In this document: positions 11,894-51,505 of the stretch, piece after piece
Layout: every line of letters begins with the position of its first letter
How positions within the stretch are numbered: the first letter of the stretch is position 1
Origin: an uncultured Candidatus Saccharibacteria bacterium
GTDB lineage: Bacteria > Patescibacteriota > Minisyncoccia > UBA6257 > WO2-44-18
Assembly (NCBI GenBank): GCA_964373675.1
Contig: CAYJVO010000003.1
Location: forward strand, 1-51,505
DNA length: 51,505 nucleotides
Reading direction: 5' to 3'
Position numbers and translations under genes: made by a program
Notes under the pieces: generated by a model
Database searches by the model: none
What the model was told of the DNA's origin: nothing
The model's input: only the letters and a program-made list of their open reading frames with translations

Positions 11894-11901
11894 CGGAACA
11901 A

Positions 11902-11929
11902 TCACCACTATCGCATGCGATAGTGGTGA
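11902..11929. repeat. Perfect 28-bp palindrome, second copy of the CCACTATCGCATGCGATAGTGG core
   Basis: TCACCACTATCGCATGCGATAGTGGTGA, 9 nt after the stop of paralog 1. Confidence 0.9.
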
Positions 11930-14830: not shown

Positions 14831-14853
14831 ACATTAAGTATAAACTATGACTA

Positions 14854-15200: not shown

Positions 15201-15231
15201 TCATAGTCATTTGTTATTAGTCATAGTAAAT

Positions 15232-17007
15232 ATGTTTAAACTGGTATCCCAATTTGTTCCAAAAGGCGATCAGCCGCAGGCCATCGCCAAACTAACGGAC
15301 GGCATCCAAACTGGCTTAAAAGACCAAGTTCTTTTAGGCGTTACCGGCTCCGGCAAGACCTTTACTATGGCCTCGGTAATGGAGAAAATCGGCCTGCCGA
15401 CACTTGTTATCTCACCCAACAAAATCCTCGCCGCCCAGCTTTATCAAGAGTTCAAACAATTTTTTCCGAATAATGCCGTACACTATTTTGTTTCCTACTA
15501 TGACTACTACCAGCCAGAGGCCTACATTCCTCAAACCAACACCTATATCCAAAAAGACGCTCGCATCAACGAAGAAATAGACAAGCTCCGTCATGCCGCC
15601 ATCCAAAGTGTGCTTACCAGAAAAGACACGATCGTTGTCTCTTCCGTCTCCTGCATCTATGGCATCGGCGATCCCAATGAATACCAGCGCGCCCGCCTGG
15701 AACTCAAAACAGGACAATCTGTCGGCCAAAAAGATTTGGAACGCAGTTTAAGTTTTCTCCAATATGAACGCACTACCAAACGCCCGCTTCTCGGCCAATA
15801 CCAGCTTTTAAAAACCGCCCTGGAAATTCACCTTGTAACTGACGAACTTGTCCACATTGAATTTGATCGCGGCCGAAAAATAAAATCCGTTACGAAACTC
15901 GTTAACTCGTTAACTCATCAACTCATTAACTTAATCATCTATCCGGCCAAATTCTGGGTCACACCCCAAAACAAACTCAAACTGGCCCTCAAGAATATTA
16001 AAGCGGAAGCGGAAGAGCGCGTTGAAGAATTACAGTCCGCCAATAAATTTATGGAAGCCGACCGCCTAGAAAAACGCACTGGATTTGATTTGGAAATGCT
16101 CGCTAAAAAAGGTTATATTAATGGAATTGAAAATTATTCCCGTCATTTGAGTTTCCGTGAACCCGGCGAGCCGCCAATGACGCTTTTAGACTACTTCCCA
16201 AAGCCGTTTCTGCTTTTCATTGACGAATCCCATATTGCCATCCCCCAACTTCGCGCTATGGAAGCCGGCGACCGAATTAGAAAAGCCACCCTGATTGAAC
16301 ACGGCTTCCGACTGCCTTCGGCGCTGGACAATCGGCCGCTGAAATTTGAAGAATTCAATTACAAAATCGGCCAGAGAATTTATGTTTCCGCCACCCCCGG
16401 TCCCTATGAGTTGGAAAAGACGGGGCAAATCGTTGAACAACTGGTAAGACCAACTGGTATTTTGGATCCTAAAATTTCTATTCGGCCGGCCCAAAATCAG
16501 ATCAAAGACCTCTTGGAGGAAATCAAAAAACGGATCGCCTGCAATGAACGGGTTCTGGCGCTGACACTAACCAAAAGATCTGCCGAAGATTTGACGGAAT
16601 TTCTGCTTTCCCAAAAAATCCGGGCGCAATATCTTCATTCAGAGATCAAAACCCTAAAGCGCCCTGAAATTCTCAATGCTCTGCGGCGCGGCAAAATTGA
16701 TGTTGTCGTTGGCATCAATCTTTTACGCGAGGGATTGGATCTGCCAGAAGTAAGCTTGGTGGCAATTTTAGACGCCGACCGCGAAGGATTTTTACGCAAC
16801 TACCACGGCCTCATCCAAATGTCTGGCCGCGCCGCCCGCTCAGTTAACGGCAAAGTAATTCTATATGCTGATTTCATCACTGGATCAATAAAAAAAGCGA
16901 CTGTGGAAACTTTGCGGCGGCGCAAAATCCAAGAAAAATTCAACAAAAGCTACGGCATTATCCCGCAGACTATTCAAAAAGAAATTTCTATTGACTCTAT
17001 AAACTAA
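15232..17007 (+). CDS. uvrB: Excinuclease ABC subunit B (short, no C-terminal UVR domain)
   Basis: GDQPQAI, LLGVTGSGKTFT, YFVSYYDYYQPEAY, DESH, DNRPL, NLLREGLDLPEV; ATG 15232 preferred. Confidence 0.96.
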   Translation: MFKLVSQFVPKGDQPQAIAKLTDGIQTGLKDQVLLGVTGSGKTFTMASVMEKIGLPTLVISPNKILAAQLYQEFKQFFPNNAVHYFVSYYDYYQPEAYIPQTNTYIQKDARINEEIDKLRHAAIQSVLTRKDTIVVSSVSCIYGIGDPNEYQRARLELKTGQSVGQKDLERSLSFLQYERTTKRPLLGQYQLLKTALEIHLVTDELVHIEFDRGRKIKSVTKLVNSLTHQLINLIIYPAKFWVTPQNKLKLALKNIKAEAEERVEELQSANKFMEADRLEKRTGFDLEMLAKKGYINGIENYSRHLSFREPGEPPMTLLDYFPKPFLLFIDESHIAIPQLRAMEAGDRIRKATLIEHGFRLPSALDNRPLKFEEFNYKIGQRIYVSATPGPYELEKTGQIVEQLVRPTGILDPKISIRPAQNQIKDLLEEIKKRIACNERVLALTLTKRSAEDLTEFLLSQKIRAQYLHSEIKTLKRPEILNALRRGKIDVVVGINLLREGLDLPEVSLVAILDADREGFLRNYHGLIQMSGRAARSVNGKVILYADFITGSIKKATVETLRRRKIQEKFNKSYGIIPQTIQKEISIDSIN

Positions 17008-18043: not shown

Positions 18044-18988
18044 TTATATCAATAATCTGTTTAGCGGTAACTTCTGGCATTTTGGGCAATAATGCGCTGA
18101 TCTGCCGCCTAATTTAATTCGCTTTATTTGAGTTCCGCATCTTTGACATGAGTCTCCTTCGCGCTGATAAACTAAACGTTCATCAGTATAGGCGCCGGGT
18201 TCGCCAGCTGTATCGCGGAAGTCGCTTGTTGAAGTGCCGCGAAGTTTTACGGCTTTTTTTAAAATCTCTCGCATCGCCTTATAAATCGCTTTTAGTTCCT
18301 GATCCTTTAATTTATTCGCCGACTTGAACGGATGTACTTTCGCTTTCCATAAAATATCGTCCGAATAAATATTACCAATGCCGGCAATCACCTGTTGATC
18401 CATTAATACTTGTTTAATTTTTCTTTTTTCTCCCCTTATTAAACTCATAAACTCAGCGACTGTTAAATTGGGCGAGAGCGCGTCCGACCCAAGATTTACT
18501 AACTCCGGCAAATTCTCAACCTCTTTAGTCCGCCCCAAAATGGCTTTCGCGAATTTCCGCAAATCGGAAAGCGCCAGCATCTTCCCGTTATCCAGATAAA
18601 AAATGAGGTGAATATATTTATTATATGGGTCCTCAACGGCCGCCTTCGGCTCTAGCGGAATAACCTGACACCTGACACCTGACACCTGACACTTGACGCT
18701 CCACTTTCCAACAAGCATATGCCCGGTCATCTTTTGGTGGATTAAAAGAAGCTTATCGCCGGACAGATAAATTAAGATGTTTTTCCCTCGCCGCTCAACA
18801 TTAATAATTTTTGATCCCCGAATTGCCTTTTCAAATTCTTTAACATGCGCGTGCTTCCTTGCCCGCCATTGATCTAACGGATCTTTAATTCCTTTTGGCC
18901 AATCCGACCAAACACCAACGATCCGCCGCCCTACTACTTTGTGGTTTAAATCGTTAACCACAGTTTGAACTTCCGGTAATTCTGGCAT
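18044..18988 (-). CDS. mutM: Formamidopyrimidine-DNA glycosylase
   Basis: MPELPEV, RRGK, H.KMTG, GIGNIYSD, C-terminal CQRC...CPKCQ zinc finger. Confidence 0.97.
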   Translation of the reverse strand: MPELPEVQTVVNDLNHKVVGRRIVGVWSDWPKGIKDPLDQWRARKHAHVKEFEKAIRGSKIINVERRGKNILIYLSGDKLLLIHQKMTGHMLVGKWSVKCQVSGVRCQVIPLEPKAAVEDPYNKYIHLIFYLDNGKMLALSDLRKFAKAILGRTKEVENLPELVNLGSDALSPNLTVAEFMSLIRGEKRKIKQVLMDQQVIAGIGNIYSDDILWKAKVHPFKSANKLKDQELKAIYKAMREILKKAVKLRGTSTSDFRDTAGEPGAYTDERLVYQREGDSCQRCGTQIKRIKLGGRSAHYCPKCQKLPLNRLLI

Positions 18989-21816: not shown

Positions 21817-22276
21817 GACTAAAGTTTACCCAAATTGTGTCTTTTGGTAAAAGTTTTTTTATTTTCTCTCCCCACTCAATTAGCACAATGTTAAATGGAT
21901 AATGTAAAATGGATTTAAAATTTAAAACGTCTAATTCCTTAATGTTGTGAATTCTGTATAAATCAACATGATAAAAGTTTTGTATTTTATCCCGATACTT
22001 GATACTTGATACTTGATGCTTGATGCTTGATGCTTGATACCTTCTAAATATAAGGAATGTCGGGCTGACTATCCGATGTTTTATACCAAGCGCTTTTGCA
22101 AACCCCTGAACAAAAGTGGTTTTACCGGCGCCAAGATCGCCGCTCAGGGCAACAACAGTGGCATATCGCATGCCTGCCTGTCCGGTAGGCAGGTCGCTTT
22201 TTACATTTAACAAACGCTTAGCAAGCTTGGCCGCTACCCGTTTGGTTTGCGCGGCGCTTCTTGAAACAAACCTCAT
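21779..22276 (-). CDS. tsaE: tRNA threonylcarbamoyladenosine biosynthesis ATPase TsaE
   Basis: GDLGAGKTT, SPTF, HVDLYR, IEW. Confidence 0.95.
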   Translation of the reverse strand: MRFVSRSAAQTKRVAAKLAKRLLNVKSDLPTGQAGMRYATVVALSGDLGAGKTTFVQGFAKALGIKHRIVSPTFLIFRRYQASSIKHQVSSIKYRDKIQNFYHVDLYRIHNIKELDVLNFKSILHYPFNIVLIEWGEKIKKLLPKDTIWVNFSHGRKENERFITY

Positions 22277-25927: not shown

Positions 25928-26198
25928 AAACCTATCTCAAAAATACTCCCAAGCCGCGTTGCGAGAAATTTTCTCGTCCCGCTGCGTTGCTCCTCGTCAA
26001 TGTAGTTAAAACTACAATTTCCTCTTCGCGCCTTGCAGGGACGAGAAAATTTCCGCAACCCTTCGGGATACTGCCAATTTTGCCTATCGCGGCGTCGCTC
26101 CTTCTCTGAGTATCGCAAAGGATACACCTTCGTCGTCGCTCCTTGCGCTAGAAAAAATTGACTAGTATCGCGGCCGGGAGTATTTTTGAGATAGATTC
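25928..26198. mobile_element. MITE-like element, copy 1
   Basis: 19-bp perfect inverted repeat CTATCTCAAAAATACTCCC (25932-25950 / 26176-26194); no credible ORF; subterminal similarity to copy 2. Confidence 0.75.
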
Positions 26199-27619: not shown

Positions 27620-27765
27620 TAGAACCTATCCCAAAAATATCCCCAAGCTGCGTTCTTAGCCATTTTCTCCGCAGGACGAGGCGCGATGAGAAAACTGTAG
27701 TCGCTCCTTGCACTTTCTAAAATTTGCCAGTATCGCAGCCGGGGATATTTTTGGGATAGGTTCTA
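27620..27765. mobile_element. MITE-like element, copy 2
   Basis: 25-bp perfect inverted repeat TAGAACCTATCCCAAAAATATCCCC including terminal TA (possible target-site duplication). Confidence 0.8.
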
Positions 27766-31396: not shown

Positions 31397-32755
31397 TTAG
31401 CTTTTACTAATCATATCTTTGACCATTAGAATATTCTGATTCAGTTTATGATTTTTATTGATTTCCTCCCCTATTTTTCCACAGGCATAAATAGCAGTTG
31501 TGTGATCACGCTTCCCCAATTTTTCCCCAATTGACGGATAAGAAAGGTTTAAAATTTCGCGCATTAGATACATGGTAACCTGCCGTGGTTCCACTAATTC
31601 TTTTTTCCGCGAACGACCGGTTAAATCGCCGGTAGTAATTTCGTAAAATTCCGCAACGCAGTTTAGAATTTGGCCCGGACTCACATTATGTGAAGATTCC
31701 TGAATATTCTGATTGATTAGCTCCTCCACCTTTTTAGGAGTTAACTCGCCCTTATTTTGCTGATAAAATAGGACTTGATTAAGAACTCCTTCCAGTTCCC
31801 GGAGATTTTTTTGGGCTTTGGTTGCCATAATCTTGAGATATTGGTCATCTAACTGCGTTCCTCTTTCTACTAGTTTGTTTTTTAAGACAGCCAGCCTTAA
31901 TTCAAAATCCGGATAATCAATACCTACAGTCATGCCGCCGGCAAAACGCGACTTTAGCCGTTCGTGAAGAGTAGGAGTAAAATTCGGCGGGCGATCGGAA
32001 GAAATGATTATTTGTTTATTATTCTCATAAAGCGCATTAAAAGTATGGAAAAATTCTTCTTCAGTTGATCCTTTTCCAGTAATGAACTGAATATCGTCAA
32101 TAATTAAGACATCTACCAAGCGGTACTTTTCTTTAACTGTTTCCATTCTTTTGGAACGAATGCCGGCAATGACATCGTTGGTGAATTTTTCCGAAGGCAC
32201 ATATCTTACTTTTATTTTATTTTGGTAACGATTTTTGATTTCGTTTCCGGCCGCCTGAATAAGATGAGTTTTTCCTACGCCGACCCCGCCGTATATGAAT
32301 AAAGGATTATATTTATTGCCAATGGATTCAGTGATGGCTAGACAGGCGCTGTAAGCGAGTTCGTTTGATTTGCCGATAACAAAAGAATTAAGGGTATAGC
32401 GGGGGTTTAAATTAGTTTCCGGATCAAGTTTGAATTCCGAGAATCCGATTTGACTTGGAGATGATGCTTTAACTTCCAATTTTTCTTTTGCCAAACCCGA
32501 CTGCGGATCTTTAATTACCGCATAATCAATTTTTTTAGTGGTTTCATCAAGATTTCTTAAGGCGCGAAGAACAATTTTCCCATATTTATTTTCTACCCAT
32601 TCTTTTGCAAAACTATTGGGAAGTCCGATTAAAGCAACCCCCTCTTTTTTTTCTAGTAAAGAAGTGTTTTTAAACCAAGTAAGAAAATTTGGTCTCGAAA
32701 TTTGCAGTTCAATTTCACCAAGAGCAGCTCGCCAAATTTCATTGAGACCATTCAT
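31397..32755 (-). CDS. dnaA: Chromosomal replication initiator DnaA
   Basis: NPRYT...FVIG.SN.LA, YNPLFIYGGVGVGKTHL, IDDIQF, RELEG, RDHTT. Confidence 0.98.
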   Translation of the reverse strand: MNGLNEIWRAALGEIELQISRPNFLTWFKNTSLLEKKEGVALIGLPNSFAKEWVENKYGKIVLRALRNLDETTKKIDYAVIKDPQSGLAKEKLEVKASSPSQIGFSEFKLDPETNLNPRYTLNSFVIGKSNELAYSACLAITESIGNKYNPLFIYGGVGVGKTHLIQAAGNEIKNRYQNKIKVRYVPSEKFTNDVIAGIRSKRMETVKEKYRLVDVLIIDDIQFITGKGSTEEEFFHTFNALYENNKQIIISSDRPPNFTPTLHERLKSRFAGGMTVGIDYPDFELRLAVLKNKLVERGTQLDDQYLKIMATKAQKNLRELEGVLNQVLFYQQNKGELTPKKVEELINQNIQESSHNVSPGQILNCVAEFYEITTGDLTGRSRKKELVEPRQVTMYLMREILNLSYPSIGEKLGKRDHTTAIYACGKIGEEINKNHKLNQNILMVKDMISKS

Positions 32756-39229: not shown

Positions 39230-40926
39230 TGTTGTTGTAATACCTGTTCCGGTTTGGTGGTAATGATTTGGTCTTCTAAATACGACGCGATTACTTGAAT
39301 TGCCACATGGTTGGGACCGACAAAAAACAGTCCTTGCCCAATCCCGACTTCTAGTAAAAGATTTTTTTCATATTCAGTTAAATTGAAAGCTTTGGCCACC
39401 ACATCAATGGTTGCCGGCGCTTGTTTTAAAAGGAGCTGCAGAGAGGAGTTAGTAATAATTGGTCGGCCAAAAGGAGAATTCAGGAAATCTTCAACATCTT
39501 GAGTAACAGTAGTGACGCCAAGGTAATATTTACGGGCACGTTTTACCAGACCAAAAAGAAATGAAGCGCCTTCGGGGTATTTCATCATCCACCAAGCTTC
39601 ATCTACAATCAGAACTCGTTTTTTCAATTCAGCGCGGATCAAATTCCAGATAAAATTTAAAATAATGTACATAGCGATCGGCCGCAGTTCTTCTTCCAAG
39701 TCGCGGATGGAAAAGACGATCAGACGATTTTTGATATCAATATTAGTCGGCTTATTAGTGAAGCCGGCAAAACTCCCTTTAGTGAAGCGGTAAAGCCGCT
39801 GGGCAAGATCGTGGCCGCCTTTCATATTGGCAAGGACTTTTTCTAAATCTTCCAAAAGCGGGGGTTCGGCTTTGGAAAAATCTTTGCCGGGGATAATATC
39901 GCGGGCGGCATAAGTTTCACTAATGGCTTGGTCAAGCATTGCTTCTTCTTCAGAGGTGATTTCTCCGAGCATGAGTTTCAGGAGGCCAGCCAGATTTACA
40001 ATATGGGAACGCAAAACTTCAGCTGGATCTTCGTCTTTAGGGATAATCGGGATTTCAAAGGGATTGATGTTATCTGTGGAGGTTAGCGAGATTTTGAATA
40101 AACTGCCGCCGACAGCATTGGCAAGGTTTTGATATTCATTTTCCGGGTCAATGATGACAACATCGGTTCCAAGCATCAGGAGACGCAGAGTTTCCAGTTT
40201 GGTGGCGTATGATTTTCCGGCTCCGGATTTGGCAAAAATTACCATATTGGCGTTTTCTAAAGAAAAGCGATCAAAAACTATCAAAGTATTGTTATGGCGA
40301 TTAAGACCGTAGAGCATGCCGTCATCAGAAGTAAGATTGGCTGACACGAACGGGAAAAAGGAAGAAACTGGACTGGAGTTTAGCGGAGTATGGATAGATA
40401 ATTTGTCGGTTCCCAGGGGCAAGGTTGAGCTTAAACCTTCCAATTGCTGGAAAATCGCCGGTTTGGCATAAATTAGCCGGCTTTCCAAAAGATTGCTGAT
40501 TTGCGCTTCTAATTTATTGAGATTTTCCAGCGTATCGGCGTAAAGAGTGATGTATAATCCAACATTAAAGAGCTGTTCTGTGGCTTGCTGGAGTGAATCT
40601 CGGAGCGCTTCAATGTCTTGAAGAGCGGTTTCCAAAACCGGATTGCGCACCAATCCTTTTTCTTCCTGTTCGCTGATTTGGGCCTGCACCTGAGCGGCTT
40701 TTTTGCGAAGATTTTTAAGAGCCAGAGCAGTATCAATAGAGTGAACGAATATGGAGATGTCCAATAAATTCGGAAGATTAATGATCGGCGAGAACCATCC
40801 GGTTGAAAGATAGCGAGGGTAAGAAAAGATAAAAAGAGTCTTGGCAAACTTTTTTCCCAGCTTCAAGTAATTGGAATCAATTTCCAACGCCGGCGGGGCT
40901 AGTAAGTCTTTAAATTGTTGGTCCAT
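39226..40926 (-). CDS. VirB4/TraE-like ATPase
   Basis: YGLN, FDRF, AKSGAGKS (Walker A), IDPENEY, INPF, IVDEAW (Walker B), RARKY, TQD. Confidence 0.9.
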   Translation of the reverse strand: MDQQFKDLLAPPALEIDSNYLKLGKKFAKTLFIFSYPRYLSTGWFSPIINLPNLLDISIFVHSIDTALALKNLRKKAAQVQAQISEQEEKGLVRNPVLETALQDIEALRDSLQQATEQLFNVGLYITLYADTLENLNKLEAQISNLLESRLIYAKPAIFQQLEGLSSTLPLGTDKLSIHTPLNSSPVSSFFPFVSANLTSDDGMLYGLNRHNNTLIVFDRFSLENANMVIFAKSGAGKSYATKLETLRLLMLGTDVVIIDPENEYQNLANAVGGSLFKISLTSTDNINPFEIPIIPKDEDPAEVLRSHIVNLAGLLKLMLGEITSEEEAMLDQAISETYAARDIIPGKDFSKAEPPLLEDLEKVLANMKGGHDLAQRLYRFTKGSFAGFTNKPTNIDIKNRLIVFSIRDLEEELRPIAMYIILNFIWNLIRAELKKRVLIVDEAWWMMKYPEGASFLFGLVKRARKYYLGVTTVTQDVEDFLNSPFGRPIITNSSLQLLLKQAPATIDVVAKAFNLTEYEKNLLLEVGIGQGLFFVGPNHVAIQVIASYLEDQIITTKPEQVLQQQ

Positions 40927-40943
40927 GTTTTAGAATTTAGATT

Positions 40944-41618
40944 TTAGGATTTAGGATTGTTTTCTAACACACCTTTTTTCTCAATTGTTTCCGGATTGTA
41001 AAGATTGTAGAAGAGTTCCGTCACCGAAGCGGTGTCTAGGGCAATAGCATTTAAACCGATTGCGCCAAGCGCGCTGACGACCTGTTTCACTCGTTGACCG
41101 AGCTGTACTAAACCTTTGGCAATTTGCTGTTCTTTTTCTTGTTGAGTAGCCTGCGGCGAGGTTTTTTTGCCGAAGAGCCCCATAATTTTGGCGGCGATTC
41201 CCGCTGCGATTTGAGGGATTTGGATCGGATCAAAAGGTATAATGACAAAAAAAGTCTTGTTCATAATCGGGTTTTCGGTTATAAAGGAGGAAACGAATTG
41301 GCGATACTCGCCAATTTGATTTTTTAAAAGTTCATTTTGTTCCTCCTGCTGGCGAGTGCTCAATTTTTCCAAATAGCGATCCAGATTAATTTTTCGGGAG
41401 TGAATGAAAAATTGAAGCGAAAAGTCCAGCGCGTTTAAAAGATTTTGGTAACCGTAAAGAATAAGATTTTGCTCTTCTTCGGATTTCAGGTCAAAATTTA
41501 CGCCGGCAACCATTAAGATTTGGCGAAGGGCGCCGTTTTTTAAAATAATCACGCCATCGCGGACTTCTTCAATTTCCACTATTTGCTGAGAAAATTTTGC
41601 TGTTGTTGGTTGAGCCAT
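40944..41618 (-). CDS. VirB4-associated protein (TraE N-terminal-like)
   Basis: DGVIILKNG.LR.IL.V..VNF.LKSEEEQ, F.LQ..I.SR; position between PrgI-like gene and VirB4. Confidence 0.7.
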   Translation of the reverse strand: MAQPTTAKFSQQIVEIEEVRDGVIILKNGALRQILMVAGVNFDLKSEEEQNLILYGYQNLLNALDFSLQFFIHSRKINLDRYLEKLSTRQQEEQNELLKNQIGEYRQFVSSFITENPIMNKTFFVIIPFDPIQIPQIAAGIAAKIMGLFGKKTSPQATQQEKEQQIAKGLVQLGQRVKQVVSALGAIGLNAIALDTASVTELFYNLYNPETIEKKGVLENNPKS

Positions 41619-41655
41619 ACTTTAATTATTGTTTAGAAATCAGAAATTGGAAATT

Positions 41656-42129
41656 TTAGCGGTAGTCTATTTTTCTTGCGAATCTTTTTTGGCTGAACGC
41701 TTGTTTATACACATCCAGCCTTTCTTTTTGCGCCATCTGAGTTGGGATCCGCAGAGTGGTGGTGATTTTCAGCCAAATTCTTTTAAGCGGAGAAACAATT
41801 TCCAGACGAGGGGCTTCCGGTATTTTAATTTCCGGAACAGCAGCGATTTCTTCAGATTTTTTCCATAAATAAAGTTTTGGTTGAGTCGCGTATTTTAAAG
41901 CCGAAGCGATTATCACCGGCATTGGTCGGCCATTATACTTTAAAAATGCCAAAATTGCCGCTGTCGTCCCGAGGATTGCAGTGACGATGAACCAAAACCA
42001 GAGTTTCAGGACAAAAAACAGCAAGAAACTGATCAGTCCGGCCGCCGCCAAATAAATAAATTGTTTGAGCGTCAGCGGCCCGACGATTTTATCCTCCATT
42101 TCTATAAATTGTGGAACTTGAAATTGCAT
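41656..42129 (-). CDS. PrgI family protein
   Basis: QFQVPQFIE.EDKIVGPLTLKQF, two TM helices, YNGRP. Confidence 0.85.
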   Translation of the reverse strand: MQFQVPQFIEMEDKIVGPLTLKQFIYLAAAGLISFLLFFVLKLWFWFIVTAILGTTAAILAFLKYNGRPMPVIIASALKYATQPKLYLWKKSEEIAAVPEIKIPEAPRLEIVSPLKRIWLKITTTLRIPTQMAQKERLDVYKQAFSQKRFARKIDYR

Positions 42130-42133
42130 ATCA

Positions 42134-42639
42134 GTTGATGAGTTAAAGAGTTGATGAGTTGATGAGGTTGACTTTGTTTTCCGGAAAATTTTCTATGAAT
42201 TTTATGTAGCCAAAAATTGCTTTTCTAAGGTTAATATACTGGCCCGAAACTTTTTTTGCTGTTTCTTGGTCAATAAACCCTTTATCGGAACATCGTAGGA
42301 TATTGGTTCTTGTTTCTTCTAATTCCGCTATCGCAATATCCCTTAATATATGTATTTTATCGCGTTTATGCTGTTTATAATAAGCCTCAGCAATATTATT
42401 AGTTATTGAAGAAGACGATCTATTTAATTGATCAACGCTTCTAAACCGCTCGTCTTTGGGAAAAGCTTTAGTGAGCTCGCGAACTTCCAGTTCTAGATCT
42501 TTAGCCATATTGTAAATTTTTAAGTTTTCTATTCCTGTAGCCATTGAAATTATTCCTCATTAACTGTAGCGAAGCCAAGTCTGACTTAGCGAAGCCAAGT
42601 CTGACTTGGCGAAGCGTAACTCATTAACTCTTCAACTCA
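42134..42639. mobile_element. Putative cassette: 8-mer array - four-helix-bundle gene - CTCATTAACTGTAGCG end
   Basis: Both ends recur without the gene at 49053-49137 and 49581-49665. Confidence 0.55.
42143..42544 (-). CDS. Four-helix-bundle protein (23S IVS protein/bAvd-like)
   Basis: ENLKIY, FPKDERF...DQL.RSS.SI..NIAE, IA..EL.E. Confidence 0.88.
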   Translation of the reverse strand: MATGIENLKIYNMAKDLELEVRELTKAFPKDERFRSVDQLNRSSSSITNNIAEAYYKQHKRDKIHILRDIAIAELEETRTNILRCSDKGFIDQETAKKVSGQYINLRKAIFGYIKFIENFPENKVNLINSSTL

Positions 42640-43290: not shown

Positions 43291-44820
43291 CTAATTCTTT
43301 CGTCTTTTTTTCTTCGGCATCGTTTCATGGCGTCCGAAGCCGAGCTTTAGTCCCTCTAAGAGTTCGTTAGCAACAGCGGGTTCCATTTTAATTAAGTCAA
43401 GTCTCTTATTTCTTGCTAATTCAGATAGAATAAGCATTTTCATTGGTTTTGGAGCAAATTTGTATCTTCTAGCTATTTCTTCCAAAGATAATCCTTTGAT
43501 TGATTGTTCGTAAGGTTTCAATATCTGTTTTTCAGCCGTCATGCGAATATTAGCTAGTCCAGCGCCAGCTGTTCTCAAAAGCGGCACTTTCTGCATACCC
43601 GCAACTATGTTGCGACCGATTTGAGTTCTTAGTGGCCAAGAGCCGGCCCGCAAACCGATTCTTCCAGTTTGACCAATGGCGAAGTTTTTCACGGCTCCGG
43701 TTTGACCAATGGCGAAGTTTTTCACGGCTCCGGCCCATCTTAACCCCATATCTGCTCCGCTGATGCTCATAGAATTGGCAGCCATTAGTCCGCCGACCAT
43801 TAAACCAGCCGAAATAATAATTTGAAGAAAAAGTCCTAGGGCATCTTGAATTAAAAGCCCATCATTAACAAAACGCGCAATTTGACTTGAGGCCGTATGC
43901 TGGTTAATCGATTCGCCAATTTTATCAACGGTCACTAAAGCAAGATAGATGAAGAAGGTTGCGGCTGGCAAAAAGAAATTCCACTGTAAGAATTTTGACC
44001 ACCAATTCCTCCAAAGGTGGCTAAGATTTGGGAAAATCCACATCAGCCAAGCCAGTGGCATTAAAAGAAGAAGAATGGTGAGCATGATATAGCGGATCAA
44101 AAGCATAAATCCCGTGACGAACATTACTATAGCCGTAATGGCTCCAAAAATAATCATGAAAATGGGGGCTAAAACTAATGAAATTAATTTAAAAACTACT
44201 CCCTCAACATCAGAAATATCATTCCTGACCGATAACAATTTTTGGGGATTAAAAGCGGCCATAATATTGTTGGTGAAAAGCGCTGGATCACCACCGGCTC
44301 CTTGATTGACAAAGACGGCTGCCAGCGCATTATTGAAATCTACAATTGGTGCGGCAATCACTAAACTAAAATTTACTAATAAAGCCGCAACAATGAGTTT
44401 CCACAGAGTTTTTTTAATGGCATAACTTTCAATTCTTAAAATAGTTGCAAAGGCAATAATGATAATTGCTAACACGAAACCGAGATTGGTAATGTCTAAG
44501 ACGACACCAAACCCGTTTTTTAAAAGATGATTGGTATCCAGATTAAAGACTTGGGCGTTGAAAGCGAGCATGAAATTAATAAGATCCGTCCCTACGCTAA
44601 TTAAGTACTGAATGGCGATTGCCGGAATGAATGTAACATACCGCAGTAATAAGGATATGCCTTCCTCTACGCAGGCATACAAGTCACCAGGACCGCAATT
44701 TACGAAAGCCGGCTGCGTTAATAACTCGCTGACATTTTGAGCAGAAGCGAAGTTCGCCGCAAAAAGAAAAACGGCAATCAGTGAAATTAATAAAATTTTA
44801 TTTACGGAATGTTTCTGCAT
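43291..44820 (-). CDS. VirB6/TrbL-like polytopic membrane protein
   Basis: D..NL.F....IIIAF.TIL, L..LI.AALLVNFS, R.I.L..L..L.PLA......P, W..WW..F..W.FF.P; possible frameshift near the 3' end. Confidence 0.7.
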   Translation of the reverse strand: MQKHSVNKILLISLIAVFLFAANFASAQNVSELLTQPAFVNCGPGDLYACVEEGISLLLRYVTFIPAIAIQYLISVGTDLINFMLAFNAQVFNLDTNHLLKNGFGVVLDITNLGFVLAIIIIAFATILRIESYAIKKTLWKLIVAALLVNFSLVIAAPIVDFNNALAAVFVNQGAGGDPALFTNNIMAAFNPQKLLSVRNDISDVEGVVFKLISLVLAPIFMIIFGAITAIVMFVTGFMLLIRYIMLTILLLLMPLAWLMWIFPNLSHLWRNWWSKFLQWNFFLPAATFFIYLALVTVDKIGESINQHTASSQIARFVNDGLLIQDALGLFLQIIISAGLMVGGLMAANSMSISGADMGLRWAGAVKNFAIGQTGAVKNFAIGQTGRIGLRAGSWPLRTQIGRNIVAGMQKVPLLRTAGAGLANIRMTAEKQILKPYEQSIKGLSLEEIARRYKFAPKPMKMLILSELARNKRLDLIKMEPAVANELLEGLKLGFGRHETMPKKKRRKN

Positions 44821-47428: not shown

Positions 47429-48292
47429 CTATAAGCTGAAAAAGTGAGAAAGAGTGGATAACTTTTCTAAACTTAAATCCTGCGGTCTTGTATTGACCGG
47501 AAGACCATTTTTGGCAAGAATTTCAGCAATTTTTGACTTATCCACAGATAATCCCCCCTTCGCTAAAGCTACGGAGGGCAGGCCACTAGTCAAATTATTA
47601 AGAAGGGTCTTTCTCGGCTGTTTAAAAATAATTTTTATCAACTTATAGTAGTTTTTCTCCGCTTCCCTAGTGGTTAATGGCTGAACCCTAGTGGCTAGTT
47701 TTATAATTGCCGATTCCACTTTCGGCGGCGGTGAGAAATTAGACGGCTTTAAATAAGATATTATTTTTGGCTCGGCCCAAAACTGCACCGCCGCCGCCAG
47801 CAAATTCATCCCACACATAGGACATTTCCTACGTGTGGGATTCATTTTCGGCGGATGAGCGCAAATTCGTTCCGCGACCTCCCTTTGAATAGTCAGCACA
47901 GTCAGCGCCGGCTTATTTTCCAATTCGCTCAAAATCCGCAAAAGCTTGCCGGTGATGTAATAGGGAATGTTGCCCACTACTTTGAAGAATCCGGAATATA
48001 GAATATAGAATTCAGGGTTGGCTAGTACTTTTAGCGCATCGCCGTGAATAATTTTGGCGTTTCCTAAATTTTGTATCCTAAATTCTAAATCCTCGGCTAA
48101 ACGAGGGTCTTTCTCTATACCAATGACTTTGCAACCGATTTTCGCGCATTGTTCCGCAAGCGGTATTGTTAATGCTCCCTTTCCTGGACCGATTTCCACA
48201 ATCGTCTCGCCGGCGTTTAATTCCAAAGCGGCGATTATTTTTTGAATCGCTGAACGTTTAATCAAAAAATGCTGTCCTAATTTGCGTGACAT
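47429..48292 (-). CDS. rsmA: 16S rRNA adenine dimethyltransferase RsmA/KsgA
   Basis: LGQHFL, VEIGPGKG.LT, IEKD, GDAL, VGNIPYYIT, Q.EVAERI, F.PPPKVESA, F.QPRKTL.NNL. Confidence 0.96.
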   Translation of the reverse strand: MSRKLGQHFLIKRSAIQKIIAALELNAGETIVEIGPGKGALTIPLAEQCAKIGCKVIGIEKDPRLAEDLEFRIQNLGNAKIIHGDALKVLANPEFYILYSGFFKVVGNIPYYITGKLLRILSELENKPALTVLTIQREVAERICAHPPKMNPTRRKCPMCGMNLLAAAVQFWAEPKIISYLKPSNFSPPPKVESAIIKLATRVQPLTTREAEKNYYKLIKIIFKQPRKTLLNNLTSGLPSVALAKGGLSVDKSKIAEILAKNGLPVNTRPQDLSLEKLSTLSHFFSL

Positions 48293-48335
48293 AATGCTAA
48301 CTGCTCTAACTTTTACACGAATTACACGAAGTTAG

Positions 48336-48749
48336 TTATTTTTTAAATTTAGCATTTATTATGCGTTTTGGTTTCAGATATTTTTGTTTGAAGTTCACAA
48401 TCATTCCCAAAGATAGGTTAGAAAATTCTAAATAACGCAGAACTTGATAGAAGTCGTTTCTTGTGGTGAATGGTTTGTTTTTTAACTCGATCACAATGAT
48501 TCCCTCGATTACGAAATCCGCCCTGTTAATATCATCACCAGTCTTTGAAATTAGTTTTTCTCTTTCGTACTTGATCCCCGTCTTCATAAGCAGTTTTTCT
48601 AATAGATCGCCGTACTGTTTTTTTCTCGCATATCTTCCGAGGGAGTCTTGGGTTTTAAAAAACAAGCCGACGAGTCTGTAAGACAAATCTTTATGTAGAA
48701 TATTTATTGTTTGTGTTATTCGTGTATTAGTTCGTGTTGTTGGTTTTAT
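48336..48749 (-). CDS. GxxExxY family protein, possibly degenerate
   Basis: ILHKDLSY.L.G..F....LGRYARKKQY, RADF.IE..I..ELK, Q.L.YL, G..VNF; frame open to ATA 48749 with no ATG; motif Glu appears as Lys. Confidence 0.7.
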   Translation of the reverse strand: MKPTTRTNTRITQTINILHKDLSYRLVGLFFKTQDSLGRYARKKQYGDLLEKLLMKTGIKYEREKLISKTGDDINRADFVIEGIIVIELKNKPFTTRNDFYQVLRYLEFSNLSLGMIVNFKQKYLKPKRIINAKFKK

Positions 48750-51505
48750 ATTTCAGATTCTTCAATGTAAATATCCTCCTCGGATTCTTGATATTTAGGC
48801 CTGCCGATTTGTTTTACCTCAGTTAATTCCGGTGGAATTTCGCCGAGGAAACGCGATGGCAAGTTATAAAAACTTAAAAACAGATTTTTTCGGGCGCGGG
48901 TCATAGCGACATACATCAGCCGGCGTTCTTCTTCCGTGTCGTCCAGCGATCCGTAAGACATTTGGTGCGGCAAAGTGCCTTCGTTGCAGCCGGCAACAAA
49001 AACCGTTTCAAATTCCAAGCCCTTGGCGAGGTGGATGGTCATTAGGCTAATAGTTGATGAGTTGATGAGTTGATGAGTTGATGAGTTTTTTTCGGTCCGA
49101 AACTCATTAACTGTAGCGTCAGCGTGACTCTTCAACTGATTAGCGGGTTGATCGGCTGATTGAAGAAGCGAAACGCGTTCTAAAAATTCGCCCAAGTTTT
49201 CAAAGCCGGAGGCAAAGACGATTAATTCGTTGATGTTTTCCTTGCGTTCCTGGTAGTTTTTATAGTTTTTTTCCAAATAATCAAAGTAATCGGCATTATT
49301 TAAAAACCAACTAATCAATTCCAGGATTTTGAGGTTTTTTCCGAGGCGTGGCAGTTCTTCCAAAAGCAGTTCGGTCACTGATTTGGTGAAATTTTTAACA
49401 ATTCTCTCGCGGCTGACCTCATCTTTAGGGTTGGCGGCAATCCGTAAAGCGGCAACAATGTCTTTTATTTCTTTTCTTTCATAGAATTTCAACCCGCCGA
49501 AAATTTTATAAGGAATGTTAGCTATAATTAACGTTTGTTCAATCGCGCGGGACTGGGCGTTAGTGCGATAGAGTATCGCGGTTGATGAGTTAATGAGTTG
49601 AGGAGTTGAGGAGTTTTCTCGGCCGTCGAACTCATTAACTGTAGCGTTAGCGCGACTCATTAACTGTCTAATTTTGTCCGCGATAAAATCCGCTTCTTGT
49701 TCCGCATCTTCGCAGGCGGCGACTTGAATCAAATCCCCGCTGGGATTTTTCGTCCACAACTCTTTAGGTTTTTGAAATTTGTTGTTTTTTATTACCGTTG
49801 AAGCGGCATTAATGATATTGGAAGTGGAGCGATAGTTTTGTTCCAGCAGTACTACTTTGGCGTTCGGCCAGTCTTTTTCAAAGTTTAAGAAATTACGGAA
49901 ATCCGAACCGCGGAATCCGTATATTGAATTATGGACAACAAAGTCATTAGCAACGTAATTGTGGACATTTTTTACGTCTAAGTCATAAACATAACCGTCG
50001 TACTGTTCCACCTCAACCTTTTTTACCGTTTTTTCTATTACTTTCTTGCCGTTTTTGACAGCGATTTGCATAGTAGGCCGAACATGAGATGCCGGCTGAA
50101 AAAAAAGCCTTTTTCCTTTTGTCAGGCAAGCGCTTCTAACAATTTCTACTTCCGAACTTGCTGTCATCAAACGTTCAGCAATTTTTTCAATTTCGCTGTA
50201 ATTAAGACGAGCGATTTCCAGTCGCCAATCTGTTATTTTGCCTTTTCTCGTAGTGAATCCCAGCTTCTCAATCGCTGTTTTTAGTGCTGAATCTTTTGTA
50301 TTGACGCTGATTCTGCTCATTCCCCACGGATGCGCTAAACTTTTTCTGCGATCATCAAATAACGTCAAACGAATGCGCAATCGTCGGGAAGAATGGCGTA
50401 TTGTTCCTTTTGGCAGCCAATGGGGATAGCTAAAATACAACAATTCGTCTTTCATTAATTTCCGGACACGGCTTTTGGTGTCAATGGCATCAAATAATTT
50501 GTCTACATGGCTTTGGGGGATTAACATATCGCGGTTGTTAGTGTCAAAAACGAGCGTTGGCAAGCCGTAATTAAATGCATAATAGTATTCGTAATATTCA
50601 GCTTCCGCTCGAGAGAAACATACTTTCAGAATCCACATTTTATCGGCCCTTTCTTGATTAGTTCTAACCATTAGTCCCAGCTGACGTTTGTCTCTGCTCC
50701 AGCGGGAGCCTTTGGTAAGGCCAATTCTAAACCCCTTATCTTTTCTGTACATTAAGTAAACGTAGAAAATATCATCTAATAGCTGCGTTTTTGTAAAAAT
50801 AATATGATTGGGTGTTAACTTAAGAGTTTTTTTGTCCGTAGTTGTTATTTTTATCAATGCGCCGCGATATCGAAATTTTTTTATTTTATCTATATTAGCA
50901 AAGCAGATTTTTTCGTCGCCTGCAGCCGCAATCACTCTGTTTTTAAGAGAAATATTTTTAATCATTTTTAATCCGCCATCGGTTGCAATTTGCGTTTCGG
51001 GCAGCACGCACTGGGCATCATCGCCAACAACCGTTAAGTTTTGAGACCCCTTTGATAAAAGTTTTATCAGTTGATATTGGGCGGGATTAACATCTTGGTA
51101 TTCGTCCACCAAGATATAACGGAAGCGTTTTTGATATTTTTCCAGAACTTTCGGATGATTTTTAAATATCCAAACCACTTTCTCTATAAGATCGTCAAAG
51201 TCCAAGGCGTTGTTTTTAACGAGCGCCGCCTCATATTTTTTAAAAATGTCCAGCGCGGTTTTGTCCAGGTATTCTTCCGGATCAATGAGTTCGTTTTTAA
51301 CATTTCCGATTTTGGCTTTTGCGGTCAGTGGGTTGTAGCGGTCTTTGGAAATATCCATAGTCTTCATTATTTTTTTCATAAGACTCAACGAATCGTCTTC
51401 ATCAAAAATAGTGAAGGAGGCAGTTCGGCCGACCGACGTCGCTTCTTGTTTTAAAATCCGAGCGCCGAGAGAGTGGAAAGTGCCAATAAACGGGGTTGAT
51501 GGGTT
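48746..51505 (-). CDS. pcrA: ATP-dependent DNA helicase PcrA/UvrD, intein-containing; 5' end beyond window
   Basis: GTFHS, DFDDL, VDEYQD, VGDDAQ|intein|SIYGFRG, LEQNYRS, LYRTNAQSR, MTIHLAKGLEF, EERRLMYVAMTRA; frame stays open to the window end. Confidence 0.95.
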   Translation of the reverse strand, partial: NPSTPFIGTFHSLGARILKQEATSVGRTASFTIFDEDDSLSLMKKIMKTMDISKDRYNPLTAKAKIGNVKNELIDPEEYLDKTALDIFKKYEAALVKNNALDFDDLIEKVVWIFKNHPKVLEKYQKRFRYILVDEYQDVNPAQYQLIKLLSKGSQNLTVVGDDAQCVLPETQIATDGGLKMIKNISLKNRVIAAAGDEKICFANIDKIKKFRYRGALIKITTTDKKTLKLTPNHIIFTKTQLLDDIFYVYLMYRKDKGFRIGLTKGSRWSRDKRQLGLMVRTNQERADKMWILKVCFSRAEAEYYEYYYAFNYGLPTLVFDTNNRDMLIPQSHVDKLFDAIDTKSRVRKLMKDELLYFSYPHWLPKGTIRHSSRRLRIRLTLFDDRRKSLAHPWGMSRISVNTKDSALKTAIEKLGFTTRKGKITDWRLEIARLNYSEIEKIAERLMTASSEVEIVRSACLTKGKRLFFQPASHVRPTMQIAVKNGKKVIEKTVKKVEVEQYDGYVYDLDVKNVHNYVANDFVVHNSIYGFRGSDFRNFLNFEKDWPNAKVVLLEQNYRSTSNIINAASTVIKNNKFQKPKELWTKNPSGDLIQVAACEDAEQEADFIADKIRQLMSRANATVNEFDGRENSSTPQLINSSTAILYRTNAQSRAIEQTLIIANIPYKIFGGLKFYERKEIKDIVAALRIAANPKDEVSRERIVKNFTKSVTELLLEELPRLGKNLKILELISWFLNNADYFDYLEKNYKNYQERKENINELIVFASGFENLGEFLERVSLLQSADQPANQLKSHADATVNEFRTEKNSSTHQLINSSTISLMTIHLAKGLEFETVFVAGCNEGTLPHQMSYGSLDDTEEERRLMYVAMTRARKNLFLSFYNLPSRFLGEIPPELTEVKQIGRPKYQESEEDIYIEESEI
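49053..49137. repeat. 85-nt element in frame in pcrA, copy A
   Basis: (GTTGATGA)x4 + 18 nt + CTCATTAACTGTAGCGTCAGCGTGACTCTTCAACT. Confidence 0.85.
49581..49665. repeat. 85-nt element in frame in pcrA, copy B
   Basis: GTTGATGA GTTAATGA GTTGAGGA GTTGAGGA + 18 nt + CTCATTAACTGTAGCGTTAGCGCGACTCATTAACT. Confidence 0.85.
49928..51010 (-). mobile_element. Intein (361 aa) in PcrA/UvrD motif III
   Basis: DAQ|CVLPETQI (block A), LTPNH (block B), VYDLDV (block F), VVHN|S (block G); removing it restores GDDAQSIYGFRG. Confidence 0.95.

What the first reader, a model, noticed from the sequence alone, without database searches (positions are those of the whole stretch)
49053..49665. Two homologous 85-nt elements inserted in frame in PcrA/UvrD
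Seen: 49053-49137 and 49581-49665 have identical length and layout and encode near-identical ~30-aa inserts (NQLKSHADATVNEFRTEKNSSTHQLINSST and RQLMSRANATVNEFDGRENSSTPQLINSST). They sit just before the conserved MTIHLAKGLE and ILYRTNAQ motifs. The frame is preserved both times. Inference: these are footprints of the 42134-42639 element tolerated in surface loops, a route by which selfish DNA adds new peptide to an essential helicase.
Basis: partly seen in the sequence, partly recalled or inferred. Interest (0 to 1): 0.75.

Follow-up and report, generated by a model that had tools for sequence, protein, structure and literature searches.

The report
In-frame hairpin repeats inside PcrA helicase
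Two copies of a small hairpin-forming repeat, the gene-less form of a nearby 'intervening-sequence' cassette, sit in frame in two flexible linkers of a DNA-repair helicase of a CPR bacterium, so the Rickettsia-style habit of repeat DNA adding peptide to housekeeping proteins also occurs in this phylum.

Summary
Window 49052-49138 and 49580-49666 (gene on the minus strand) are two 87-nt copies of one repeat. They are 69/85 identical, against about 33% in the flanks. Each adds 29 codons to an otherwise intact PcrA/UvrD gene, just before the LYRTNAQ and MTIHLAKGLEF strands. Each copy has a 5' arm, a loop and a 3' arm of tandem octamers (CTCATCAA)n, and folds into a long imperfect hairpin. Only one of six frames is stop-free, so the similar peptides are forced. 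The same arms flank a four-helix-bundle (23S-rRNA IVS protein/S23p, TIGR02436) gene at 42130-42639, so the PcrA copies are ORF-less members of that cassette family. The closest orthologues without repeat DNA have much shorter linkers. Other orthologues carry different palindromic repeats in the same two linkers. A relative's contig (L099) holds five ORF-less copies of this family, two in frame in genes and three just upstream of start codons. An AlphaFold model places both inserts as low-confidence excursions before beta-strands. This is best read as a CPR analogue of Rickettsia palindromic elements, built from IVS-type cassettes. The mobility mechanism and retention of the peptides in the protein are inferred, not shown.

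The parts
49052..49138 (-). Mini-element A. An 87-nt ORF-less hairpin repeat in frame in PcrA, encoding QLKSHADATVNEFRTEKNSSTHQLINSST. Layout: 5' arm, side mini-hairpin GCTGACGC, loop, then 4.5 perfect octamers.
49580..49666 (-). Mini-element B. An 87-nt ORF-less hairpin repeat in frame in PcrA, encoding QLMSRANATVNEFDGRENSSTPQLINSST.
48746..51505 (-). Host gene, a PcrA/UvrD-type helicase. The N-terminus lies beyond the window end. All conserved motifs in the part seen are intact.
49928..51010 (-). 361-aa intein splitting GDDAQ | SIYGFRG. It is a separate, unrelated insertion in the same gene.
   Evidence: (intein N- and C-terminal models), (coordinates; PF14890 in orthologues).
42130..42639 (-). 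Full-length IVS-type cassette C, with the same arms as A and B around a four-helix-bundle gene. It sits between a 200-aa gene (whose last codons and stop come from the 5' arm) and the PrgI start codon.
42143..42544 (-). Four-helix-bundle protein gene (TIGR02436 / PF05635, 23S rRNA IVS protein, S23p). Its C-terminal ...NLINSSTL is read from the octamer arm.
42567..42615 (.). 20-nt tandem repeat (2.5 copies) that expands the side mini-hairpin of cassette C's 5' arm. Relatives have only GCTTCGC here.
15896..15931 (+). Solo array of the same octamer family (AACTCGTT/AACTCATC x4.5), in frame in UvrB (KLVNSLTHQLIN), with no net length change of the UvrB_inter domain.

Best explanation
A and B are two non-autonomous, ORF-less copies of a palindromic repeat family of CPR/Patescibacteria. 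The full-length form of this family is an 'intervening-sequence-type' cassette: tandem-octamer inverted arms around a small four-helix-bundle (S23p/IVS protein) gene.

The copies entered PcrA at the DNA level and persist for three reasons:
- They lie in the only orientation and phase, of six, that has no stop codon.
- They are 87 nt, or 29 codons.
- They sit in two linkers that lead into beta-strands of the second RecA-like domain, just before LYRTNAQSR and just before MTIHxAKGLEF.

They are transcribed and translated with the gene. Each adds a short helix (...ATVNEF...) followed by a disordered Asn/Ser/Thr-rich coil, and the helicase core is left intact.

Shown here: the repeat identity, the hairpin, the single open frame, the family relationship to the cassette, short linkers in repeat-free orthologues, a dispersed multi-copy distribution in relatives, and modelled loop locations.

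Inferred: that the peptides are present in the protein, and how the copies spread.

My best guess for spread, at low confidence, is a strand-specific single-stranded-DNA hairpin process. This could be a Y1/RAYT-like enzyme acting in trans, or replication template switching or gene conversion between arm-like sequences. The reasons are that the hairpin is consistently stronger on one strand, no target duplication is seen, and the target sites resemble the arm.
For: Repeat identity and significance.

Hairpin: (z from -3.5 to -6.4).

One of six frames open.

Same arms and 16-mer around a TIGR02436 gene at 42130-42639.

Conserved 5' module AGTTRAWRAGTYAC-[2-5 bp GC mini-hairpin of varying sequence]-TACAGTTRAWGAG, seen in 11 element copies from 5 contigs.

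Orthologues:
- The modal site-A linker is 22 aa against 47 here, measured from FLE. Site B is 22-31 aa against 43.
- The nearest clade contains repeat-free genes with B 6-7 and A 16-17.

Other orthologues hold other palindromic tandem-arm repeats in the same two linkers, often the same family at both sites.

The L099 contig has 5 ORF-less copies of this family in 22 kb. Two are in frame (PcrA site A, and RsmA with EQLRFATVEQLNSSKTAQLLNSST). Three end 0-15 nt before start codons.

More than 100 IVS-protein homologues at 52-76% identity were found. Of 15 relatives read in full, most have C-terminal tails ...LINSST/NSSTH read from the octamer arm.

Orthologous cassettes sit in the same operon slot in L102 and L104.

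An independent Logan assembly is 100% identical over 40510-42617 and breaks inside the arm, as expected for a multi-copy repeat.

Structure: the model has pLDDT 83 overall and about 50-77 in the inserts, which lie just before strands 116-120 and 293-297. The fold matches PcrA 1pjr with TM 0.71.

Strand asymmetry: the antisense hairpins of the octamer family are 12-15 kcal/mol more stable, through G.U pairs.

The classical Coxiella IVS has the same parts: an S23p ORF, an inverted-repeat stem and tandem heptamers (PMC4990558).
Against: - No transposase or other mobility gene lies in the window (tblastn with a Y1 transposase from L100 was negative).
- No target-site duplication is visible.
- The exact 16-mer was not found outside this genome in the genome and metagenome collections, only chance hits. 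Recent mobility of this precise subfamily is therefore not demonstrated.
- The cassette at the PrgI slot looks vertically inherited rather than recently mobile.
- Same-family occupancy of both PcrA sites in at least four genomes could reflect intragenic copying or gene conversion rather than two independent insertions.
- No read, transcript or protein data were available.
- The orientation of all copies is confounded with gene orientation.
Confidence: 0.75

Rival explanations
1. There was one ancient insertion, or an ancient pair of linker extensions, followed by copying between the two sites. The two PcrA copies would then come from ectopic gene conversion or template switching between the two linkers 528 nt apart and with other genomic copies, not from two independent insertion events. 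The sequence in each lineage would be periodically overwritten by whichever repeat family is active.
For: - In the query, L096, L097 and L098 both linkers carry the same genome-specific repeat family, although each genome has several families.
- Filled sites are patchy on the orthologue tree.
- At site A, native codons are missing rather than simply interrupted. In UvrB the octamer array replaces native sequence with no length change.
- The repeat-free target sites resemble the arm (CAGTTA..., TTAATAATGA).
Against: - L099 has site A filled and site B empty, and L094 has different sequences at the two sites.
- A and B differ at 16 of 85 positions, about as much as each differs from cassette C, so there has been no recent homogenisation.
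- This rival concerns origin only. It does not dispute that the copies are in-frame repeat elements.
Confidence: 0.15
2. The hairpins are removed and are not part of the mature product. They would be excised from the mRNA, as IVSs are from rRNA by RNase III, and the RNA rejoined, or they would be removed from the protein.
For: - The parent cassette type is excised from 23S rRNA by RNase III in Coxiella (PMC4990558).
- The copies form long stems.
- The genome encodes an RtcB RNA ligase.
Against: - Every in-gene copy examined is in a stop-free phase and keeps the host frame: A, B, L094 site B, L099 site A and L099 RsmA. That is unnecessary if the copies were spliced out.
- IVS excision does not religate (PMC4990558).
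- RNase III ends (5'-P/3'-OH) are not RtcB substrates (established enzymology, from memory).
- No intron or ribozyme family matches.
- No intein motifs occur in the 29-aa segments, and the true intein is elsewhere in the gene.
- The sense-strand stems are weakened by one A.C mismatch per octamer.
Confidence: 0.04
3. The inserts are functional and selected. One form is a contingency switch, in which slippage of the perfect 8-nt x 4.5 array frameshifts PcrA and toggles a repair helicase. Another is lineage-specific surface modules or regulatory hairpins.
For: - Copy A has 4.5 perfect octamers. A change of one unit shifts the frame, while all three frames of the array itself are open.
- Similar 7/8-nt arrays lie in frame in UvrB, Fpg, RtcB, TsaE and a beta-CASP RNase.
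- Heptamer copy number varies between Coxiella strains (PMC4990558).
- Intergenic copies end right at start codons, as reported for TAACTGA repeats (PMC4679880).
Against: - No population data on repeat number are available.
- Copy B's array is degenerate (88% matches).
- The peptides are not conserved between orthologues; different families occupy the sites.
- The model gives them low confidence.
Confidence: 0.08
4. This is an assembly artefact. Repeat-containing reads would have been mis-joined into the PcrA gene in a metagenome-assembled contig.
For: - The source is a metagenomic contig.
- The arms are multi-copy and break another assembly.
- Reads could not be inspected.
Against: - Both copies keep an 880-codon ORF open in the only possible frame.
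- The two copies differ from each other and from cassette C.
- Independently assembled orthologues from other samples carry analogous palindromes in exactly these linkers.
Confidence: 0.03

Closest known systems
Rickettsia palindromic elements (RPE; Ogata et al. 2000 Science 290:347; Ogata et al. 2002 Genome Res 12:808; summarised in PMC10969869)
   Same: - A dispersed palindromic repeat of about 100-150 bp or less.
- Many copies are inserted in frame in unrelated housekeeping genes, always in a phase that encodes a conserved peptide.
- The positions are compatible with the protein fold.
- There are also intergenic copies.
- No transposase is known.
   Different: - No sequence relationship was seen or expected.
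- The arms here are tandem 8-nt units.
- A full-length form carrying a small gene (S23p/four-helix bundle) exists.
- The host is a CPR bacterium.
- The same two linkers of one protein are occupied repeatedly, by different families, across orthologues.
23S rRNA intervening sequences with an S23p ORF (Leptospira, Coxiella; PMC4990558)
   Same: - Cassette C has the same parts: a PF05635/TIGR02436 ORF, terminal inverted repeats predicted to form a long stem, and tandem 7-8-nt repeats next to the ORF.
- ORF-less short IVS hairpins of about 90-110 nt also exist in enterobacterial rRNA (from memory).
   Different: - The elements are located in protein-coding operons and inside ORFs, not in helix 25/45 of 23S rRNA.
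- In ORFs they must be translated rather than cut out.
- RNase III processing was not tested.
- The stem is stronger on the antisense strand.
MITEs and REP/REPIN elements mobilised by Y1 (RAYT, IS200/IS605-type) transposases (PMC3116915, PMC3733652, PMC10969869)
   Same: - Small, non-autonomous, hairpin-forming and multi-copy.
- No target duplication, as for Y1-type elements.
- A strand-specific hairpin with G.T wobble.
- A Y1_Tnp gene flanked by its own hairpins sits next to PcrA in a relative (L100).
   Different: - The gene inside the full-length form is not a transposase.
- No RAYT lies in the window.
- The arms are tandem octamers of about 35 nt rather than a 20-40-nt GC-rich REP.
- The L100 hairpins are of a different sequence type.
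Heptanucleotide tandem repeats: cyanobacterial STRR (from memory) and TAACTGA repeats of Beggiatoaceae/cyanobacteria (PMC4679880)
   Same: - Short arrays of 7-8-nt units.
- Most are co-oriented with genes and end within a few nucleotides of start codons.
- Occasional copies lie inside ORFs.
- The terminal motif here is (T/C)AACTGA.
   Different: - Those are described as direct repeats with, in Beggiatoa, a single inverted pair.
- Here two inverted arrays form a hairpin with a conserved side stem-loop, and are linked to a cassette gene.

Membership tests
RPE-like protein-coding palindromic repeats (functional class) | The repeat is present in several dispersed copies, both intergenic and intragenic. 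| tested here: met
   There are 3 full copies plus 1 solo arm in the window. L099 has 5 ORF-less copies in 22 kb.
RPE-like protein-coding palindromic repeats (functional class) | Palindromic, with a predicted hairpin. | tested here: met
   z from -3.5 to -6.4, with 28-36 paired positions.
RPE-like protein-coding palindromic repeats (functional class) | Intragenic copies keep the host frame and encode a recurring peptide. | tested here: met
   Only 1 of 6 frames is open. The ...ATV(N/D/E)E(F/L)...NSST.QL(I/L)NSST peptides occur in PcrA twice, in L094 PcrA and in L099 RsmA.
RPE-like protein-coding palindromic repeats (functional class) | Insertion points are compatible with the fold (surface or linker). 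| tested here: met
   AF2 model, gaps in the PDB PcrA alignment, and short linkers in repeat-free orthologues.
Rickettsia RPE families proper | Sequence homology to RPE-1 to RPE-10. | not tested
   No RPE consensus was available in the tools. Different phylum and different arm structure. The elements are not filed as members.
23S rRNA IVS (S23p type) | An ORF of the PF05635/TIGR02436 family inside the element. | tested here: met
   Cassette C scores 83.6 bits against TIGR02436 (cut-off 24). Not met for A and B, which are ORF-less.
23S rRNA IVS (S23p type) | Terminal inverted repeats forming a stem, with tandem 7-8-nt repeats beside the ORF. | tested here: met
   Compare PMC4990558.
23S rRNA IVS (S23p type) | Located in helix 25 or 45 of the 23S rRNA gene. 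| tested here: not met
   No rRNA is present in the window. The elements lie in a T4SS-like operon and inside PcrA.
23S rRNA IVS (S23p type) | Excision from the transcript by RNase III. | not testable with these tools
   This needs RNA data or an in vitro cleavage assay.
MITE | Terminal inverted repeats and small size. | tested here: met
   The termini are CAGTTG...CAACTG and the length is 87 nt.
MITE | Target-site duplication. | tested here: not met
   The flanks of A, B, C, L094-B and L099-A show no direct repeat.
MITE | Derived from an autonomous IS that encodes a transposase. | tested here: not met
   The full-length form encodes a four-helix-bundle protein, not a known transposase.
REP/REPIN with RAYT | An associated Y1 (RAYT) transposase gene flanked by the repeats. 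| tested here: inconclusive
   None lies in the 51-kb window. A Y1_Tnp with different flanking hairpins is present in relative L100. The rest of the genome was not seen.
Intein / self-splicing intron | Splicing motifs or an Rfam intron model. | tested here: not met
   Intein models hit only aa 127-199 and 466-488 of the ORF, at the DDAQ|SIYGFRG site. No Rfam family reaches threshold.

The most novel reading that the evidence does not exclude
S23p/IVS-type cassettes and their ORF-less hairpins may form a still-active, structure-guided 'copy-and-overwrite' element system in CPR bacteria. A strand-specific hairpin with a conserved side stem-loop would be recognised, perhaps by the Avd-like four-helix-bundle protein or by a Y1 enzyme. 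It would then be written repeatedly into arm-like sequences, hitting the same linkers of housekeeping genes again and again and sometimes replacing native codons without changing length. That would give the long-mysterious rRNA IVS proteins a role in mobility and would make these repeats a regular source of new protein segments and of translation-start contexts.
Probability: 0.15. Interest if true: 0.85.

Novelty: new variant of a known kind. Interest (0 to 1): 0.6.

Why it matters
In-frame palindromic repeats have been regarded as a near-unique oddity of Rickettsia. Finding the same phenomenon in a CPR/Patescibacteria genome has three consequences:

1. It shows that repeat-driven peptide gain in core proteins is more general. 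Here the in-frame copies can be tied to a full-length cassette of the 23S-rRNA-IVS (S23p) type, and the same two helicase linkers are re-used across orthologues.
2. It links the unexplained IVS/S23p cassettes to a dispersed repeat family outside rRNA. This gives a tractable system for asking how these cassettes move and what the four-helix-bundle protein does.
3. It warns annotators that many 'lineage-specific insertions' and odd N/S/T-rich segments in CPR proteins are repeat DNA read through, and that these repeats fragment assemblies.

Tried and rejected
1. Exact search for the shared 16-mer CTCATTAACTGTAGCG. It gave 70 loci in genome contigs and 17 in metagenome contigs, all chance matches with no octamer arms nearby. 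Relatives differ at a few bases, so this test was too strict. They were found later through the cassette protein and orthologue contigs.

2. (GTTRATGA)3 in viral contigs found 6 unrelated simple arrays.

3. A peptide search with the two concatenated insert peptides returned nothing, not even the window's own protein. It is therefore uninformative.

4. The exact-protein look-up of the window's PcrA found no record.

5. Ribozyme, intron or small-RNA idea. The antisense strand reads UGAUGAG...CGAAAC and UGAUGA...CUGA.
- Rfam gives nothing at gathering threshold.
- Relaxed thresholds give only sub-threshold C/D-box snoRNA look-alikes (26.6 and 21.1 bits against a cut-off of 50).
- I treat these as a by-product of the TGATGA unit.

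6. A Y1 transposase in the window: tblastn was negative.

7. Target-site duplication: none seen.

8. A formal covariation count on the side mini-hairpin was not attempted, because MAFFT does not align the variable loops in register. The compensatory pattern is read directly from the sequences.
Full report
**What is there**

The right end of the window holds a minus-strand ORF, 48746 to beyond 51505, that scores strongly as PcrA/UvrD/Rep (TIGR01073, E 3.5e-124). It carries the usual motifs in the part seen, including DEYQD, GDDAQ...SIYGFRG, NYRS, LYRTNAQSR, MTIHLAKGLEF and VAMTRAR. A 361-aa intein splits GDDAQ|SIYGFRG.

Ungapped, 69 of 85 bases agree, against 22/60 and 18/60 in the flanks. Bounded by their terminal inverted repeat (sense strand CAGTT...CAAC[T/C]) they are 49052-49138 and 49580-49666. 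Each is 87 nt, or 29 codons, and the peptides are 21/29 identical. Copy A ends three codons before MTIHLAKGLEF. Copy B ends directly before AILYRTNAQ.

**Anatomy**

In the sense orientation each copy reads as follows:
- a 5' arm: CAGTTRAWGAGTC(A/G)C, then a tiny GC stem-loop (GCTGACGC or GCTAACGC), then TACAGTTAATGAGTT;
- a 10-15-nt loop;
- a 3' arm of four to five tandem octamers (AACTCATC), ending CAAC(T/C).

The arms pair into a long imperfect hairpin, with z from -3.5 to -6.4 against shuffles. The pairing has one A.C mismatch per octamer on the mRNA strand. On the opposite strand this becomes a G.U or G.T wobble. The antisense fold is therefore 12-15 kcal/mol more stable in all four octamer-family ORF-less copies tested: the two PcrA copies here, L094 site B and L099 site A.

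Only one of the six reading frames runs through either copy without a stop. Any copy that survives inside a gene must therefore have this orientation and phase, which forces the similar peptides.

**Relation to the 42.1-42.6 kb element**

The same two arms and the same internal 16-mer bound window 42130-42639. The 16-mer has three exact hits in the window, and shuffles give a mean of 0.18 matches even when up to 3 mismatches are allowed. There the arms enclose a 133-aa gene of the four-helix-bundle family (TIGR02436, 83.6 bits; PF05635 '23S rRNA intervening sequence protein'; weak similarity to DGR Avd).

- The ends of this cassette are predicted to pair.
- Its 5' arm supplies the last codons and the stop of the upstream gene.
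- Its 3' arm ends one base before the PrgI start codon, and the cassette protein's own C-terminus (...NLINSSTL) is read from the octamers.

The PcrA copies are therefore the ORF-less form of this cassette type. The parts match those described for the Coxiella and Leptospira 23S rRNA IVS: an S23p ORF, an inverted-repeat stem and tandem heptamers next to the ORF (PMC4990558).

**Are they insertions?**

The organism is a CPR/Patescibacteria bacterium. The best PcrA hits are 57-59% identical with the intein and up to 72% for intein-less genes, and named hits include Liptonbacteria and Harrisonbacteria.

- Across about 100 orthologues the site-A linker is modally 22 aa against 47 here, measured from FLE. 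Across about 65, the site-B linker is 22-31 aa against 43.
- In the closest clade, P0115 and P0074 have linkers of 6-7 aa (B) and 16-17 aa (A), against 27 and 35 here. Their DNA at these places is ordinary coding sequence.
- G. stearothermophilus PcrA (1pjr) aligns with gaps at both sites.
- An AlphaFold2 model of the C-extein has mean pLDDT 83 and matches 1pjr with TM 0.71. Insert B is a continuation of the preceding helix plus coil (pLDDT 54-77) before strand 116-120. Insert A is a helix plus coil (pLDDT about 50) before strand 293-297.

At site A the comparison with L100 suggests that about 6-8 native codons (LVNGQR...) were displaced as well. Both empty sites contain arm-like strings (CAGTTA..., TTAATAATGA).

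**The same two linkers are used again and again**

Other orthologues carry different palindromic, tandem-arm repeats at exactly these two places:
- L096 has GTCATTGCGAGCGCTAGCGAAGCAATCTC at both.
- L097 has ATGACNA heptamer hairpins at both.
- L098 has ACGAATN hairpins at both.
- L095 has an AAGTTGAT/AACTTATC hairpin at site B.
- L094 has a relative of our octamer element at site B.
- L099 has one at site A and an empty site B.

On a rough tree the filled and empty states are interleaved. This could reflect a target preference, selection that leaves only these permissive linkers, or overwriting of older copies. These options cannot be separated here.

**The family exists elsewhere and is dispersed**

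Exact-word searches failed, but the cassette protein has more than 100 relatives at 52-76% identity. Of 15 relatives read in full, most end in ...LINSST or ...NSSTH(QLIN). One begins with the 5'-arm peptide ...LRVNEF.

Orthologous octamer-arm cassettes occupy the same slot (x-gene | cassette | PrgI) in L102/L103, L104/L105 and L097. The slot is empty in L096 and L100, and holds a different cassette in L094.

In L099, 22 kb contain five ORF-less copies of this family:
- one in frame in PcrA site A;
- one in frame in RsmA (EQLRFATVEQLNSSKTAQLLNSST);
- three intergenic copies ending 0-15 nt before the start codons of RsmA, PrgI and VirB4.

Across 11 copies the 5' module is conserved. Its small side stem-loop keeps pairing with different sequences: GCTGACGC, GCTTCGC, GCCGCGC, GGCAGTAGCC, GGCCAAGAGCC and TCCCCTTTCGGGGA. 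That pattern is what a recognised structure would show.

All copies are co-oriented with the surrounding genes. An independent Logan assembly reproduces window 40510-42617 exactly and stops inside the arm, as expected for a multi-copy repeat.

**How it most likely works**

Shown: identity, hairpin, single open frame, family membership, dispersed copies, short linkers in repeat-free orthologues, and linker location.

Inferred: the segments are transcribed and translated as part of PcrA. Every in-gene copy examined keeps the host frame open, which would be unnecessary if the copies were removed. The spread mechanism is unknown.

A strand-specific single-stranded-DNA hairpin route is my preferred guess, based on four observations:
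- No transposase lies in the window.
- No target duplication is visible.
- One strand has the stronger hairpin.
- The likely origin is near 32.8-33.0 kb: dnaA at 31397..32755 on the minus strand, rnpA from 33018 on the plus strand, and a GC-skew change (dnaA is assigned by synteny with L102). This would make the plus strand the lagging-strand template at 42-50 kb.

A Y1 transposase gene with its own flanking hairpins lies next to PcrA in L100, so such enzymes exist in this group. Orientation is confounded with gene direction, so this remains weak.

**Comparison with known systems**

Functionally this is closest to the Rickettsia palindromic elements, which are in-frame, peptide-coding, fold-compatible and lack a transposase (PMC10969869). 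I do not file it as an RPE family member.

The full-length form has the hallmarks of an S23p-type IVS except its defining location in 23S rRNA. It fails two MITE criteria, having no target duplication and no transposase-encoding parent. The arms resemble the heptanucleotide arrays reported just upstream of start codons in Beggiatoaceae and cyanobacteria (PMC4679880).

No paper in the searchable library describes such in-frame repeats in CPR bacteria.

**Verdict**

The correction is that these are complete ORF-less family members, not excision footprints. It is a new variant of a known kind and is of moderate-to-high interest.

Noticed in passing
window 49928-51010 (-): A 361-aa intein (C...HN|S) interrupts PcrA between GDDAQ and SIYGFRG. 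Most of the listed orthologues have one at the same place (PF14890), but several of the closest do not.
   Followed up: partly
window 48291-48749: A second cassette type fills the PcrA-RsmA spacer: a GxxExxY protein gene (TIGR04256, 48336..48686, -) between inverted arms of TTACACGAA-type repeats. In L096 the two genes overlap, so the site is empty. In L100 the same spacer holds a Y1 transposase gene.
   Followed up: partly
window 14829-15235: A third cassette lies between ruvA and uvrB: (ATGACTA)n/(TAGTCAT)n inverted arms around a truncated four-helix-bundle gene (only profile positions 1-54 of 109, then a stop). Its arm peptide MTMTND recurs in the PcrA inserts of orthologue P0114 (L097).
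   Followed up: partly
window 8387-8416, 10008-10033, 18663-18697, 21994-22040, 15896-15931: Solo arrays of 7- or 8-nt units lie in frame in a beta-CASP RNase, RtcB, Fpg, TsaE and UvrB (peptides such as SVKGQVSRV, QASSIKCQ, SVKCQVSGVRCQV, QASSIKHQVSSIKYR, KLVNSLTHQLIN). Fpg and TsaE are about 30 aa longer than their Pfam models. UvrB shows no net length change.
   Followed up: partly
L099 12989-13066, 19905-20028, 21668-21737: Intergenic ORF-less copies of the octamer family end 0-15 nt before the ATG of RsmA, PrgI and VirB4, with no obvious Shine-Dalgarno sequence. In the window, cassette C likewise ends 1 nt before the PrgI ATG. This may bear on translation initiation.
   Followed up: no
window 1612-1778 (-): tRNA-Arg(CCG) at 1706-1778 is followed by a partial second copy, from the anticodon stem to the 3' end (90% identical over 42 nt), with about 31 extra bases in the anticodon loop. 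Neither ARAGORN nor Rfam detects it. It may be an integration scar or a decayed tRNA.
   Followed up: no
window ~32.8-33.0 kb: A probable replication origin: dnaN and dnaA on the minus strand to the left, rnpA-yidC-jag on the plus strand to the right, a GC dip to 34% and a change in GC skew. The whole T4SS-like/PcrA block to the right would then be transcribed head-on to replication.
   Followed up: partly
window 11404-11926: Two identical, self-palindromic 22-mers (CCACTATCGCATGCGATAGTGG) flank a 149-aa ORF with weak TrpR/YerC-like HTH hits. This may be another small cassette.
   Followed up: no
window 43663-43733: A perfect-frame 33-nt tandem duplication (2.2 copies, 97% identical) lies inside the 509-aa ORF 43291..44820 of the T4SS-like cluster.
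   Followed up: no
window 27620-27765 and 26132-26198: A perfect 25-nt inverted repeat encloses 96 nt just upstream of the 819-aa ORF at 27708. Its right half is 79% similar to a 67-nt stretch upstream of the YebC gene. No Rfam match.
   Followed up: no
L100 4780-5560: A 237-aa Y1 (HUH) transposase gene between PcrA and RsmA is bracketed by identical hairpins TGATTGATTTACGAAATCAATCA. This is a REP/RAYT-like arrangement in a CPR genome.
   Followed up: no
window 49068-49112 and 49596-49640 (+): On the antisense strand both copies give sub-threshold matches to a C/D-box snoRNA model (26.6 and 21.1 bits, cut-off 50), because of the UGAUGA...CUGA motifs. This is probably a by-product of the octamer unit.
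   Followed up: partly
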